Shown here: positions 32,767 to 44,400 of the stretch, in pieces
Numbering within the stretch: the stretch's first letter is position 1
Layout: each line of letters opens with the position of its first letter
Assembly (NCBI GenBank): GCA_035221665.1
Contig: CM069162.1
Coordinates: forward strand, 25,606,001 to 25,670,000
Direction of reading: 5' to 3'
DNA from: Okamejei kenojei
Taxonomy: Eukaryota
DNA length: 64,000 nucleotides
Position numbers and translations under genes: made by a program
Notes under the pieces: generated by a model
The model's input: the letters and a program-made list of their open reading frames with translations, nothing else
Database searches by the model: none
Told to the model about the DNA's origin: nothing

Positions 32767-33398
32767 ATCACTCACTTTACTCACATTTTTTATTATTATT
32801 TTTATATTATGTATTTAATTTCATATTATATATTATATAGATTTAAGTATGATTGGTATTATATAGTTAGTTCAAAGAGACGTGTGTATAAGACAATGAC
32901 ACAGATATTAACTTTCATCGATCTGATGTTTGGGTATAGTATTGGGTTAGATGAGCTGAGACATCTACTCCATTATAAACCACCTTAATAATAATATGTA
33001 TGACATAAACACTAGAATTGGGGGTGATGGAATCACCTCTGTAGTTGGAATGTTAAGGGAATTAACGAACCAATTAAAAGAGATAAGGTTTTAGCTCAAT
33101 TAAATAGATTGAAATCTGATATTATTTTTCTCCAAGAGACACACCTTAAAAAAGACGCTCAGTATAGATTAACAGCAAAATGGATTTCCAAAGTATATCA
33201 CTCTTCATTTACACATAAGTCTAGAGGGGTAGCAATAATTATTCGTAAAGGTATACCTTTTAAACAAAGCTCAATAATAGAAGATGTTGAGGGTAGAAAT
33301 ATAATAATTACAGGTGAATTATATTCTAAAAAAGTAATCCTTATGAATATATATGGTCCTAATTTTGATAATCCATTATTCTTCAAGGAAATATTTAA

Positions 33399-33863
33399 CA
33401 TTATTACCCATATCACACATCTGAGCTATGCTTTTACAAAATTGTATTCCCTTCGTTTTGAGTGCCAGCAGGGTTAACAGGGGAATATTTTCTTGTATTC
33501 CCCTTTCTTGCGAACGCCTATGGACTTTACGTGTTAAAACAGCGGTAAATATAGTCTTATATTCCCCTGGTCTCACATCCGGGAACTTGGCAATGTGACG
33601 CTGCGTGGGAAATTTAGAATTTGTTCTCGACAAAACAAGCAAAATGGCAGCCTCCTGCGAGAAGAGGTTCGCGACTTTTGACAGAAGATTTTCCTCTAGA
33701 TGTCTGATATGGGTAATAATAACAATATTGACTGTCCTCTTTCGGGGGATACGACATATATTGCCCTCACTAGATCCATATTGCCCTCTTCTTCGACTCG
33801 GGCAATATGAATCTACTTCAGGCAATATATGTCGTATCCCCCTCAAGGCCAGTCAATATTCTA
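33399..33863. mobile_element. 465-bp non-autonomous palindromic DNA element inserted at TTAA inside the L1 endonuclease
   Basis: TTAA flanks both sides (33395-33398 and 33864-33867). Removing 469 bp restores the EN frame EIFN-IPISTQHNLIIGGDFN. It has a 23-bp inverted repeat (33400-33422 / 33698-33720) and a long hairpin at 33724-33860. Confidence 0.85.
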
Positions 33864-36800
33864 TTAATATCCCTATATCCACTCAACATAATCTAATAAT
33901 TGGAGGTGATTTTAATTGTATCTTAGATAATTATTTAGATAGATCATCAATGAAAAGAAAAACCACTTCTAAGTCAAGTACACTTATAAATTATTTTATT
34001 AACACAGCAAACGTTAAGGATATCTGGAGAATAGATAACCAATCTGGTCGAGAATATTCATTCTTTTCCCCTATATTTAGAACCTACTCAAGGATAGACT
34101 ATTTTTAATAGATTCAAAACTAATCCCATTTACATATGACTCAAAATATCATAATATTATTATCTTGGATCATGCTCCATTAACATTTAAGATAAAATTA
34201 AAATACATAACTATTAAAACCTCTAACTGGAGACTCAACCCCCAAATATCAAATGATAGGGCTTGTTATGATTACTTGGTAAAACAGATTAAATTATTTT
34301 TTGAAACTAATGACAAACCTAGAATTTCACCATCACTGCTTTGGGATACATTTAAAGCATTTATGCGTGGTGCGATAATATCAGCACACGCATACTTTAA
34401 TAAGGAAAATCGAAAGACTCAACAAAAGTTGGAAAATGAAATAAAACAATTAGATATTGAAAATGCAATATCTCCTTCAAAGGGGCTAAGTAATAAAATT
34501 GCATCATTAAAATATAAGCTAAATAAAATATACTCAAATCAGATTATTAAACTTTTTCAACAGACTAAACAAGTACATTTTGAATTTGGGGATAAACCAC
34601 AAAATTTACTGGCACGCCAGCTTAGAAAATTAGATGAGGAGAAAATGATACATAAAATTCGATCTGAACAAGGAGAAATATTGACTTTACCAAAGGATAT
34701 CAATGATACATTTTTACAATGTTATCAAAATCTTTACTCATCTAAACTAGCAGGACAATCAGATGGAATGGAAACATTCCTACAAGAATGTCATATTAAC
34801 AGTTTGGATCAGGAAGGTAGAGACTTGTTAAATGCTGATATATCAGTAAAAGATATTGAGGAATCAATTGGATCATTAAATAACGGAAAAGCCGCAGGTC
34901 CTGATGGCTTAAGTGTTGAATTTTATAAGAGGTTTTATGATCTGATCTCTCCACGTTTACATACAATATATAAATATGCTTATGAACAAGGAAAGTTACC
35001 AGAATCATTAAATGTATCTACAATTACACTTATCCCTAAAGCTGATAAAGATTTGGACGGCCCTGGGTCATACAGAGCAATAGCTCTTTTAAACACTAAT
35101 CACAAAATACTAACTAAAATGTTATCTTGGAGGCTACGTTTAGTGATTAATAACTTAATACATCATGACCAAACAGGTTTTATTCCAAAACGCTATTCAA
35201 CTTATAATCTGAGACGTCTATTCAATATCATGTACTCAAAAAGAGTGAATGATATTGAACTAGCTGTCATATCCTTAGATGCTGAAAAAGCATTTGACCA
35301 GGTTGAATGGCCATATTTATTTTAAATAATGCAGAAATTTCAACTGGGGGATAGATTTTCCAAATGGGTAAAAATCATATACTCGAATCCAACTGCAAGA
35401 ATATTAACAAATCAAATGTTATCAGCAAAATTTAATCTCTTTAGGCGTTGGTACACAAGGATGCCCATTATCACCATTACCATTTGCTTTGGTAATAGAA
35501 CCATTAGCCAAAATGATTAGATCAGAACCAGAAATATATGGATATAATACCAAAACTACAACAAATAAAATATCTCTATACACAGATGACATCTTAATTT
35601 ATATCACAAAACCGGAGATTAGTATTCCCAATCTATTTAATGTTATAACTAAGTTTGGAACATTTTCTGGGTATAGAATTAATTGGAATAAAAGTCAAAT
35701 TATGCCTATAACTGGAATAAAATTAAATATTAGAACAATTCCCACTTAAAATAGTCACGGACAAACTCAAATATCTAAGAACTAATGTATCTAAGTCCTA
35801 TAACTGTCTATTTAAATATAATTACCCTCAATTATTAAATAAACTAAAAATATATATTTTATATTGGAAAACACTACCTTTCTCAATGATCGGTAGAATA
35901 AATGCTATAAAAATTATTTTTTTGCCACAATTGTTATATTTATTTCAAGCCATCCCTTTATATCTCCCTAAAATGTTTTTTTAAAAAAAATAGATACTTT
36001 GGTTAATAGTTTTATTTGGGACTATAAAAATCATCGAATAAGTAAAAAACATCTATGTAAATCTAAAATAAAATAAATGGTGGACTAGCACTACCAAATT
36101 TCTTATATTATTTCTGGGCAGTTCAGATTAAGAATATGAATTTTTGGTTGGTAAATTTAGATCATGAGCCAAGCTGGCTAAAGATGGAAAAGGAAGACTG
36201 TTTGCCTTTTGATGTAGGTTCGATTCTTTTTGCACCAAGGGAAGTACCAAAAAAAACGTAAATTGACAACCCTATAATTCATTGGGTTTAATAATCCAAA
36301 TAATAGACGTATTTGGAAACAAATAGTTAAGACCCTACATATGGATAATTTGTTTGCCAATTATGAATAATTATGAATAATCCTTTGTTTGGGCCCTCTG
36401 TATTGGACAAGGGGTTTAGACACTGGAATGATTTAGGAATTAAAAGGATTGAACACCTTTACAAGAAAGGAACATTTCTTTCATTTCAAGAGTTACAGGA
36501 TATCTATGGATTGCAGTCAAATAACATATTTAGGTATTTACAAATTAGAAACTATATTAAGTCAAATACGCAAGACCATAAAAATAGAAAACCAGGATTA
36601 TTAGATGAATTGTTTAATAAACACCCAAATACAGAAAAATTAATAACGTATATATACAATACTATTTTGGATAGGGAAATCCCAACTTCGGAAATATATC
36701 GACAAACATGGGAAAATGAAATAGGTTTATCTATAACGAAGGTAATTTGGGAAGAAAGCCTACAACGTATACATTGTTGCTCATTAAATGGTAGACGTAT

Positions 36801-41400: not shown

Positions 41401-44400
41401 CTTTGCATTAGGAAGACTGCTGAAGACAACAAAACTTATTTCCCAGAAGAGGTGACAAACACAGTAAAGAACAACTTCTATATAGGTGATTGTTTAAAGT
41501 CCATGTCTTCGGAACAGGAGCAATTCAAATGGCAGCACACCTGACTTCCCTCTGCCAAATGGAAGGGTTTGTGCTGTCAGAGTGGATCAGCAACAGCCGT
41601 GCTTTATTGGAATCCATTCCACAAGAAAACAGAGCCAACAGACCAGGGAGTTGGACTTGGACAAAATCAATCTGCCTATGGAAAGAGCACTGGGGTTGCA
41701 CTGGTGCGTTAAAGCAGATGTGTTCTAGTTCAGAATTATGGTACAGGAACGACGATGGGATATCTTATCCGTAGTTAGCTCTATATACGATCCATTTGGA
41801 TTTCTTAAACCATTTACTCTGCCAGCCAAGCTGATTATGCAGGAGCTTTGTAAGGAAAGACTAGGATGGGATGAGAACATATCACTAACCTTCTCTCAGC
41901 GATGGACAGGATGGTTAGCAGATCTCAATAAGAAGTCAGAATTTAAAGTGGACCGGTGCATGAAGCTCGCTAACTTTGGTCAAATCAGATTTGCACAGCT
42001 GACCACTTTTCAGACGCAAGCGAAAGTGGCTACAGTACTATTTCATATCGAAGACATATCTAAGATAACGACAAAGAAGTGCATGTTGCATTCATAATGG
42101 GAAAAGCCAGAGTGACACCACTGAAGCAAATGCCAAATCCCAGAATGGAGCTTACAGCTGCAGTCCTCACTGTCAGAGTTGACATAATGCTGCGAAAGGA
42201 ATTACAGCTTCTACTGGACAAATCCATCTTCTGGACCCATAGCACAACAGTGCTTAAGTATATCATCAACAAAAACAAACACTTTCAAACATTTATAGCA
42301 AACAGGATCTCCTTTGTAAGGGATGCCACTGATGTATCACAGTGGAGATACTTTGCCACAAAGGAAAATCCTACGGATGAAGCCTCTGGAGGAATAACAG
42401 CAGATCGCTTCTTAAGCAGTAAGAAATGGATCAAGGGACCAGAGTTTCTCTGTAAGCCTGACAGAGAATGGCCAAAGCTTAACCTGGAATCAGCAATCTC
42501 TGCTAATGATCTGGAAATCAAGCAAGACATCACAGTGAATGTAATTGTCAAGGATCCATTGGACTATTGAAATACCTATTTGTCATCATGGAGTAAGTTG
42601 AAGACTGTGGTAGCTTGGTTTCTTAAACTATGAACAATGTTCTTGCTGTTGACTCGAAAAAGAAAGGATAGGTATCTTTGAAAAAGATCTTGGCAAACCA
42701 AAGGAAAAGGTTGATAAAGAGATGCAAGTCTTTAAAGCATCAGTCTGCAGACAGTGTTTATGTCCTGATAATCTTCTCAAAGCAGAAAACACAATTATCT
42801 CTTTCTGTCAAAGACAAAGATTCAAAGAAGAGCTATCAACATTAAAAGTTGGTAAACATGGAGTCAAAAGCAGTCATTTGTACAAGCTAGATCAGGTTCT
42901 GGATGAAGGTCTTCTGAGAGTCGGTGGTCGCCTGAATAGACTAGTGATGCCTGAAGAGGCTAAACATCCGATTATTCTTTCGAAGGACTTTCACATATCA
43001 ACACTACTGTTACGACATATCCATGAATAGCTCAGACATGGAGGAAGAAATGATATGCTGTTGTGATTCCGTAAAAGATACTGAATTATAAAAGCTAACT
43101 ATGCTGCAAGGAAGGTCATAACCAACTGTGTTGTGTGTGGATGACAGTGGGAAACAGTTGGAGAACAAAAAATGACAGACTTGCCCCTGGAGAGGATTCT
43201 ACCTGACAAGCCTCCATTTACAGATGTAGGAGTAGACTACTTTGGTCCCATAGAGATCAAGAGAGGACAAAGTCTATTTAAAAGATATGGTGTAATCTTC
43301 TTTTGCATGGCAAGCAGGGCAGTACATCTTGAAGTTGCATCTACACTTGACACAGACTCCTGCATTCATGCTTTATGAAGATTCATCTGTCGACGAGGTC
43401 AAGTTTCATCTTTAAGATCAGACAAAAGCACAAATTTTATCGGAGCGGAAAGGGAATTGAGAGAAGCACTCGATGGCTTAAATCAGAATAAGATGCAGAA
43501 TGCTATGCTTCAGCAAGGGATAAGGTGGAACTTTAATCCCCCAGCAGGAGTGGTGTTTGGGAACGATTGATTTGTATGGTTCGAAATGTGCTGCGCTCTG
43601 TTCTTAAACAACAATTCTGAACGATGAAACTTTATTTTGTGAAATTGAAGCAATTTTAAACGATCGACTCATTACCAAGAATTCTGATGATCCAAAGGAC
43701 CTGGAAGCACTTACACCAAACCATCTTCTCCTGTTGAAAACCAATCCAATACTGCCACCCGGACTCTTCGTGAAGGAAGACATGTACATTAAACGCAGGT
43801 GGAGACAGGTACAATATATGGCAGACCATCTTGGAAATAGTAGACACAAGAATACTTGCCTCTAATCCAAGAACGACAACAATGGTCTAGGATAACAAGA
43901 AGCTTTATTCCAGGTGACATTGTTTTGATGATTGATTCAACTGCACCACGAGGCTCCTGGCTGATGGGTAGAATATTGGAGATGGTACCAGACGCAAAAG
44001 GTCTTGTGCGTACAGTACAACCTGCGAGTAAGAACAACATCATATCGTTAAGACCGATAACTAAGATATGTCAGCTCCAAGAAGAAGATTGAATAATCAC
44101 TTAAGAAGTTTGAATGCCAACACATAGTGCATACCTTTTGTTTTTGATAATATGTTAAGCTAATATGTATTATGTATTATGTAAGCTAATATGATAATAT
44201 GTATGAGCCATTCATGCTTAGGCTAGTTACTGTTAGCATATTTTATTATTTTGTCTGGATATTTCTTGCAGAATTATTTTGAATGCTGGGGGTGGGCTTT
44301 TGATATGTAGATGAACGTTACATATAGCATAGTCACAGGGAGAGGCTAGATCAGACTGGTCGGGCACGGGAGAAAGAATACAGTTCAGCGAGATCAGACA

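What the first reader, a model, noticed from the sequence alone, without database searches (positions are those of the whole stretch)
33395..33867. Unclassified 465-bp element: TTAA-flanked, asymmetric inverted repeats and a 137-nt terminal hairpin
Seen: precise insertion into the L1 EN between TTAA copies, with no true terminal inverted repeats. A 23-bp IR pairs the left end (33400-33422) with an internal site (33698-33720). Directly after it is a long hairpin, 33724-33860 (aatattgactg/cagtcaatatt, gggggatacgacatatattgcc/ggcaatatatgtcgtatccccc, catattgccc/gggcaatatg; loop tcttcttcgactc). A small hairpin ggggaata..tattcccc lies at 33480-33503. This does not fit a piggyBac or Kolobok MITE, which need TIRs. 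Inference: a non-autonomous tyrosine-recombinase (Crypton-like) or Helentron-like element, possibly an undescribed family. The hairpin could also give small RNAs.
Basis: partly seen in the sequence, partly recalled or inferred. Interest (0 to 1): 0.7.

Follow-up and report, generated by a model that had tools for sequence, protein, structure and literature searches.

The report
Young skate Crypton with folded ends
This is a 466-base, gene-less copy of a young and abundant Crypton jumping gene in a skate-like fish genome that also holds intact enzyme-coding parents; it inserts without duplicating its target, and its self-pairing ends suggest it likely moves as one folded DNA strand, a route not shown for this class.

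Summary
The repeats are real, but the ends and the TTAA reading are wrong. Empty L1 sites show a 466-bp insertion (33401-33866) with no target duplication. It is an internal-deletion derivative (99.5-99.6% identical) of a 2,157-bp CryptonA element in the same genome whose 478-aa tyrosine recombinase keeps all catalytic residues. There are over 1,100 copies, and the host is a skate or close relative. Targets are palindromes, AATAW-6 bp-WTATY, cut at one edge of the spacer. The element's own 7-bp spacer ends up on the right; a genome-wide search found no reciprocal product, which points to exchange of one strand. The 23-bp repeat and the hairpin base together form an internal mirror of the element's circle junction, with a 7-versus-5-base bulge kept in four families whose recombinases are only about 37-54% identical to it. 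Best model (inferred): a folded bottom strand is the recombination site, as in integron cassettes. A double-stranded circle with strand-biased exchange remains possible. This scan noted the design before in invertebrates and once in this genome. I found it in no paper searched; Repbase and Dfam could not be checked.

The parts
33401..33866 (+). Non-autonomous CryptonA element, 466 bp, TTATTACCC...CAATATTCTATTA
   Evidence: Empty L1 paralogs. Boundary after the spacer is fixed by copies whose target had T at that position (L190; L009, L072). Matches parent positions 1-282 and 1975-2157.
33401..33422 (+). Left end (A); starts with the TTATT arm and pairs with the internal mirror
   Evidence: I2; 1,174 exact copies of the first 26 bases counted from 33400
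33479..33504 (.). Small palindrome with target-like arms around a 6-bp spacer; possibly a recombinase binding site (inferred)
   Evidence: I10. Other copies have inserted into this site (L208) and into the similar site at 33548-33568 (L190).
33644..33682 (+). First 13 codons of the recombinase ORF (MAASCEKRFATFD), cut by a 1,692-bp internal deletion
   Evidence: Identical to the start of the 478-aa ORF in L116
33698..33734 (+). Internal mirror of the circle junction (A' then B'); arms AATAA (33715-33719) and ATATT (33725-33729) around a 5-nt spacer TAACA
   Evidence: Sequence; fold; kept in 123 of 125 two-ended copies
33724..33860 (+). Terminal hairpin; loop 33787-33799
   Evidence: 9 compensatory, 1 one-sided, 2 broken, 44 unchanged pairs against family 2
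33855..33866 (+). Right end: AATAT arm plus the element's own 7-nt spacer TCTATTA
   Evidence: 2,025 exact 3' 20-mers; this right end in 118 of 125 copies
33390..33400 (+). Host half of the target: AATAT arm and 6-bp spacer TTAACA
33867..33871 (+). Host right arm of the target (ATATC)
33028..35325 (+).
   Evidence: Pfam PF03372 and PF00078; paralogs 96-97% identical; frame reads through the empty site

Best explanation
The element is a gene-less deletion copy of a young CryptonA transposon, moved in trans by the parent's tyrosine recombinase (inferred), and it likely inserts as a folded single DNA strand. Shown: identity with the parent, no target duplication, a palindromic target with a 6-bp spacer, one fixed crossover at the spacer's right edge, and an internal mirror of the joined ends. 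Inferred: (1) exchange of the bottom strands at the two ends releases a single-stranded circle and leaves the other strand carrying the element, so copy number rises; (2) in the circle the joined ends pair with the internal mirror and make a two-armed site with a 7/5-nt unpaired spacer; (3) the recombinase exchanges that strand with the bottom strand of a chromosomal AATAW-N5-A-WTATY site, with a strong but not absolute preference for one matching base; (4) host replication resolves the junction. Confidence is about 0.97 for the identity and about 0.55 for the folded-strand mechanism; the number given is for the whole statement.
For: Parent L116: 2,157 bp, 99.6% and 99.5% to the two parts of the element. 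ORF of 478 aa is DUF3504 over cut-off, folds like Cre (E 6e-9, TM 0.63) and keeps R177, K211, H299, R302, H325, Y334, each present in 75-81 of 81 aligned proteins. 3 of 10 long copies examined have the full ORF. Target: left-arm ATA at the 6-bp register in 68 of 100 copies against 2, 4 and 5 at registers 5, 7 and 8 and 2-10 in background; right arm WTA in 90 of 100. The same L1 site is hit in both orientations at opposite edges of the spacer. 22 of 23 head-to-head pairs have a 6-bp spacer. No duplication in 19 of 28 informative empty-site comparisons. One-sided outcome: of 75 left-anchored hits, 58 have host spacer left and own spacer right, 0 the reciprocal. A genome-wide pattern for the reciprocal left junction gave 7 hits, none reciprocal. 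The 7/5 junction mirror recurs in families 2, 3 and 4 with different sequences (recombinases 54%, 37% and 29-45% identical). Stem covariation. Mirror core kept in 123 of 125 copies and in all multi-copy deletion types listed. The bottom strand folds better in families 1, 3 and 4.
Against: No intermediate was seen and nothing was tested at the bench. One-strand footprints also follow from a double-stranded circle whose 7-bp spacer blocks the second exchange, or from strand-biased repair. Double-stranded right junctions with the 7-bp spacer do serve as targets (4 tail-to-tail cases), so the unfolded site is not inert. In family 2 the top strand folds slightly better (-74.9 against -73.7 kcal/mol). 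Beyond about 11-13 bp, subfamily changes in the left end are not matched in the mirror. The protein model resembles Cre (TM 0.63) more than the integron integrase 2A3V (TM 0.45). 9 of 28 empty-site comparisons were off by 1-15 bp in diverged or low-complexity flanks. 4 of 75 junctions carry duplicated host sequence at the right end. 2 of 125 copies lack the mirror core. Retention of the last 180 bp would be expected for any cis-needed end.
Confidence: 0.55

Rival explanations
1. Same Crypton derivative, but it moves as a double-stranded circle (the standing model) or by strand-biased copy-out as in bacterial SE elements. Only one strand exchange survives because the spacers differ in length and sequence; the mirror and hairpin serve another cis role, such as priming second-strand synthesis, splinting ligation or binding protein.
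For: Fits all junction counts equally. The 7-bp double-stranded site is cleavable. Cre-like fold. Clean excisions of an active algal CryptonF are reported (PMC9977147, passages). Strand-biased circularisation by tyrosine recombinases exists (PMC9345347, passages).
Against: Does not explain why the mirror reproduces both arms in register with a 7/5 spacer in four families. 7-bp sites are used less: 4 tail-to-tail against 22 head-to-head 6-bp cases, although the tail pattern also covered family 2. No donor-flank bases are carried along, unlike SE elements.
Confidence: 0.33
2. The element moves through RNA, borrowing reverse transcriptase from DIRS retrotransposons; the mirror works as a DIRS internal complementary region and the antisense cDNA is the integrated strand.
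For: The layout resembles the DIRS ICR, DIRS elements with ATT ends are in this genome, and the exchanged strand is the antisense strand.
Against: The parent has no reverse transcriptase. There is no pair of inverted terminal repeats to restore the 5' end. No similarity to 30 of 30 PF00589 loci. The DIRS mirror in L074 has no bulge at the junction, unlike the 7/5 design. 466-bp copies differ from the window at only 1-6 positions.
Confidence: 0.06
3. A Helentron/Helitron2-type non-autonomous element moved by a rolling-circle HUH enzyme that recognises asymmetric repeats and a 3' hairpin.
For: Left-end repeat, subterminal partner and hairpin have the same order as in those elements (recalled, not from a call); no target duplication; tandem arrays.
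Against: It is a 99.5% deletion copy of a recombinase-only element, and the target is a two-armed palindrome cut at either edge of a 6-bp spacer, not a T-rich dinucleotide.
Confidence: 0.02
4. A TTAA-specific MITE (piggyBac or Kolobok type).
For: TTAA occurs near both ends in this one copy.
Against: TTAA is not conserved, empty sites show no duplication, there are no terminal inverted repeats.
Confidence: 0.005

Closest known systems
CryptonA transposons and their non-autonomous derivatives (CryptonA-1_OL, -1N1_OL, -1N2_OL of medaka; Kojima and Jurka 2011, PMC3212892: passages, section 8, supplement search)
   Same: Single DUF3504 tyrosine recombinase ORF, about 2.1 kb parent (2,073 bp in medaka), abundant short deletion derivatives, no terminal inverted repeats.
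   Different: That paper found no terminal repeats in animal Cryptons ('n.d.' in its table) and gives no target motif for them. Here the ends, a palindromic target, a one-sided crossover and an internal junction mirror are defined, and the copies are nearly identical.
CryptonF/CryptonS model of Goodwin 2003 (seen only as cited in PMC3212892, PMC9977147, PMC13565253, passages)
   Same: Tyrosine recombinase, presumed circular intermediate, target preference.
   Different: That model uses 4-6 bp direct repeats shared by end and target and a double-stranded circle. Here at most one base is shared at the crossover and the spacers differ (7 against 6).
Integron attC cassettes and CTX phage (PMC5027507 passages, PMC3458562 search listing, PMC9345347 passages)
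   Same: Works like: tyrosine recombinase, short homology at one exchange point, a hairpin site with an unpaired central spacer, bottom-strand bias, replicative resolution (inferred here).
   Different: Not a member: eukaryotic, carries its own recombinase family, has no fixed attI platform, and the fold is made from an internal mirror 150 bp from the end. The protein is closer in shape to Cre than to IntI.
DIRS retrotransposons with an internal complementary region (PMC13465315 passages; L074 and L081 here)
   Same: Internal complement of the joined ends near the 3' end; tyrosine recombinase.
   Different: No reverse transcriptase, no inverted terminal repeats, and the mirror is bulged (7/5) rather than exact at the junction.
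Strand-biased circularising integrative elements, SEs (PMC9345347, passages)
   Same: Tyrosine recombinases, circle from one strand, no empty donor.
   Different: SEs carry 6 bp from the donor end into the new site and have four core genes; this element keeps a constant spacer and has one gene in the parent.

Membership tests
CryptonA (non-autonomous derivative) | Parent encodes only a DUF3504-type tyrosine recombinase | tested here: met
CryptonA (non-autonomous derivative) | R-H-R-Y catalytic residues intact in the parent | tested here: met
   R177, H299, R302, Y334 (plus K211, H325); Cre-like fold
CryptonA (non-autonomous derivative) | Short copy shares both ends with the parent | tested here: met
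   99.6% over 282 bp and 99.5% over 183 bp
CryptonA (non-autonomous derivative) | No terminal inverted repeats and no target-site duplication | tested here: met
Crypton (fungal/oomycete model) | 4-6 bp direct repeats at both termini shared with the target | tested here: not met
   The ATTA at both ends is not a duplicated target; at most 1 base is shared. PMC3212892 says animal Cryptons lack such repeats too.
CryptonA (non-autonomous derivative) | Matches a named Repbase or Dfam family | not testable with these tools
   No such library on hand; a named skate entry may exist
CryptonA (non-autonomous derivative) | Placement in the CryptonA clade by a tree with named members | not tested
   Assigned by DUF3504 and by homologs, not by phylogeny
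DIRS | Internal complementary region | tested here: met
   33698-33734, but bulged
DIRS | Reverse transcriptase/RNase H in the parent | tested here: not met
DIRS | Inverted terminal repeats | tested here: not met
Helentron/Helitron2 | Parent with Rep/helicase; insertion at T-rich dinucleotide (features recalled) | tested here: not met
   no Helitron family search was run
piggyBac/Kolobok MITE | TTAA duplication and terminal inverted repeats | tested here: not met
Integron attC-like mechanism (works like) | Only one strand's product is seen | tested here: met
Integron attC-like mechanism (works like) | Folded strand favoured is the exchanged one | tested here: inconclusive
   Bottom strand better in families 1, 3, 4; not in family 2
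Integron attC-like mechanism (works like) | Recombinase binds and cleaves the folded single strand | not testable with these tools
   Needs biochemistry

The most novel reading that the evidence does not exclude
Animal CryptonA transposons are copy-out elements that integrate a folded single-stranded circle, using an internal mirror of their own junction as the partner strand: a eukaryotic counterpart of integron cassette and CTX phage integration. This skate family is recently or still active and supplies an intact vertebrate-hosted recombinase, a 466-bp minimal donor and a defined target to prove it.
Probability: 0.5. Interest if true: 0.8.

Novelty: new variant of a known kind. Interest (0 to 1): 0.62.

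Why it matters
A 2026 review states that Crypton transposition has not been shown experimentally and assumes a double-stranded circle (PMC13565253, passages). The defining paper found no terminal structure in animal Cryptons. This family gives exact ends, a target rule, a strand-biased footprint from more than a thousand near-identical insertions and intact enzyme genes in one vertebrate genome, so the question can be tested directly with a small donor. If the folded-strand route holds, it would show that a recombination mode known from bacterial integrons also runs in animals, and it would suggest a link to the ICR of DIRS elements. It could also yield a compact, duplication-free integration tool.

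Tried and rejected
Rfam search of 33300-33960: no match at E up to 1. PF00589 search: none of the 30 loci fetched (of 96 scored) shares sequence with the element. Two DIRS elements beside element fragments (L074, L081) have different ends and are separate insertions. My first reading of a 4-bp ATTA direct repeat was rejected by the empty sites. Products opened at the mirror instead of the junction: 9 pattern hits, all 9 were point variants of intact mirrors. Insertion polymorphism: contigs of four runs laid on L005 did not cover the left flank and showed no joint across the insert; one run (X5) has a contig across the right junction; inconclusive. Expression: run X7 is only guessed to be RNA, so one search is no evidence of transcription. 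Small RNAs from the hairpin were not tested. Marine-metagenome matches (X17) may be fish DNA in water and are not counted as evidence of transfer. Paper searches; none returned a description of a junction mirror or hairpin end in Cryptons. Subscription papers (Goodwin 2003, Repbase Reports, Kojima's 2019 review, all recalled or seen only as citations) and bioRxiv supplements could not be read and may bear on the novelty claim. PMC1356339 was not held.

Full report
Observation. The 473 bases fold at -91.5 kcal/mol against -44.4 +/- 4.4 for shuffles (z -10.8). Rfam has no match. The stretch interrupts a LINE ORF2 endonuclease.

It is a young, abundant element. A search of the own genome (2.76 Gb) scored 40 of 1,405 candidates; all 40 had a full-length match at 99-100%. 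Exact patterns give 1,174 left ends and 2,025 right ends. Of the 33 two-ended copies of 466 bp collected, one is the window itself and the others differ from it at 1-6 positions, one of which is private to the window. Other length classes (about 360-800 bp) share both ends. A host KIAA1958 exon is 99% identical to the little skate protein, 97% to basking shark and 94% to chimaera, so the host is a skate or close relative.

Ends and target. TTAA is not conserved. Of 19 paralogs of the interrupted LINE, 16 read TTTAAC-A-ATATCC across the site, one is a variant and two carry an insertion at this same site, one in each orientation. The insert is 466 bp with no duplication. Among 36 insertions with a paralog match in my loci, I dropped 7 whose match was another element junction and 1 in a microsatellite; 19 of the remaining 28 show no gain or loss, and 9 are off by 1-15 bp in diverged or simple flanks. 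Copies whose target had T instead of A at the ambiguous base keep that T on the left (L190), which sets the element at 33401-33866. In 100 non-tandem copies the target reads AATAW-N5-A | WTATY (base frequencies from 101 copies): ATA at the 6-bp register in 68, against 2, 4 and 5 at registers 5, 7 and 8; WTA on the right in 90. The 54 of these picked only by an internal left anchor give 37 and 49. Head-to-head pairs have a 6-bp spacer in 22 of 23 places. Two inverted arms around a 6-bp spacer, cut at either edge, is tyrosine-recombinase geometry (established knowledge of Cre-type sites; PMC3212892 gives 6-8 bp).

The parent. A 659-bp variant carried a reading frame resembling a Crypton N-terminus. 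A DUF3504 search gave 44 matches; several are full elements with these ends. L116 is 2,157 bp, matches the window copy at 99.6% (1-282) and 99.5% (1975-2157), and encodes 478 aa with DUF3504 over cut-off and weaker QRICH1 and phage-integrase matches below cut-off. The model (pLDDT 90) matches Cre best (E 6e-9, TM 0.63), the integron integrase 2A3V less well (TM 0.45). The six catalytic positions are intact and present in 75-81 of 81 aligned proteins. Three of ten long copies examined keep the full frame. The window copy keeps the first 13 codons and has lost 1,692 bp.

The fold. The junction reads AATAT-TCTATTA-TTATT; the mirror reads AATAA-TAACA-ATATT, so pairing leaves 7 bases opposite 5. 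By reading the sequences, the same 7/5 arrangement occurs in family 2 (L124), family 3 (L130) and family 4 (L152, L153, L158, L160), whose recombinases are 54%, 37% and 29-45% identical to L116; families 3 and 4 share one core, so these are three independent cores at most. Between families 1 and 2 the stem has 9 compensatory, 1 one-sided, 2 broken (both in the spacer) and 44 unchanged pairs; this is one comparison of two sequences, with the structure taken from one of them. The mirror core is kept in 123 of 125 copies. The bottom strand folds better than the top in families 1, 3 and 4 by 3-10 kcal/mol and slightly worse in family 2. L112, L157 and L161 showed no such design and L154-L156 have a different arrangement that I did not resolve.

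One-strand footprint. With unlike spacers, two strand exchanges followed by replication should give two kinds of product in similar numbers. Of 75 left-anchored hits on contig C1 up to 155.8 Mb, 58 have the host spacer on the left and the element's on the right, 3 have a tandem neighbour on the left (2 with the usual right end), 8 lack a right end in the fetched stretch, 6 have another right end, and none is reciprocal. Four junctions repeat host sequence at the right end (L082, L086, L209, L224), which could come from branch migration or template switching (inference). A genome-wide pattern for the element's spacer on the left, blind to sites with G eight bases before it, gave 7 hits: 4 mutated tandem junctions, 1 mirror variant and 2 host sites whose right ends also carry the element's spacer or a one-base variant of it. 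The crossover at the right edge implies the bottom strand, given the known 5' stagger of these enzymes.

What speaks against the favoured mechanism. The footprint does not separate a folded single strand from a double-stranded circle whose second exchange fails. Four tail-to-tail insertions show that the double-stranded 7-bp site can be used as a target. Only the first 11-13 bp of the left end stay matched to the mirror across subfamilies. No intermediate, transcript or insertion polymorphism was shown.

Known systems. Non-autonomous CryptonA copies are known from medaka, where no terminal repeats were found (PMC3212892: passages, section 8, supplement search). The mechanism is stated to be unproven (PMC13565253, passages). 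An active algal CryptonF shows clean excision and rising copy number (PMC9977147, passages). An internal complementary region is described for DIRS, not Cryptons (PMC13465315, passages). The attC features come from PMC5027507 (passages), SE elements from PMC9345347 (passages); a Starship preprint (10.64898/2026.09.21.753150, passages) and PMC7599744 (one passage) repeat the circle model.

Earlier notes of this scan. I had the Crypton parent and the junction mirror before looking. The notes report the same design in invertebrate genomes and once in this genome; the integron comparison I took from them and then tested by the counts above. They are leads, not support.

Verdict. A real, young, non-autonomous CryptonA element with a newly defined end design and target rule. 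Identity about 0.97, folded-strand mechanism about 0.55. New variant of a known kind; interest 0.62.

Noticed in passing
window 1-29497: Tandem array of a 1,426-bp unit, 20.7 copies, 98% matches, with long open frames on the + strand; the two frames scanned had no Pfam match.
   Followed up: no
window 33390-33400 + 33867-33871; L144/L244, L146/L245, L181, L183: The same site in this LINE family's endonuclease region was hit at least five times, in both orientations and by different length classes: an insertion hotspot.
   Followed up: partly
L116, L121, L120, L117, L124, L217, L242: Mixed tandem arrays of different subfamilies and even different Crypton families, including autonomous copies; best explained by insertion into existing left junctions, which are good targets (inference).
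   Followed up: partly
L116 protein; run X17: Best named relative is a sea urchin protein (67%); unnamed contigs reach 94% and 84%, and a marine-metagenome contig covers 1,208 bp with 61 differences. Possible horizontal transfer, but fish DNA in water is not excluded.
   Followed up: no
runs X11 and X18: Runs labelled as two other organisms hold the family; X18 has a contig across the same 1,692-bp deletion as the window copy, at low depth.
   Followed up: no
L074:831-5642, L081:2132-6836: Two degenerate DIRS retrotransposons with ATT ends; in L074 the internal complementary region matches the junction without a bulge. L081 sits in a simple-repeat array next to an element fragment.
   Followed up: partly
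L033-L060 (PF00589 hits): A young, high-copy tyrosine-recombinase family with a 333-aa open frame, many copies 95-100% identical; unrelated to this element at DNA level.
   Followed up: no
L154, L155, L156: Three near-identical Crypton-like elements related to family 4 with a 214-bp perfect-looking palindrome near the left part and a rearranged right part.
   Followed up: no
L082, L086, L209, L224, L234, L076: Rare junctions that repeat about 4-25 bp of host sequence at one end, possible traces of replication-linked resolution.
   Followed up: partly
window 42064-42570: Fragment matching Pao retrotransposon peptidase PF05380.
   Followed up: no
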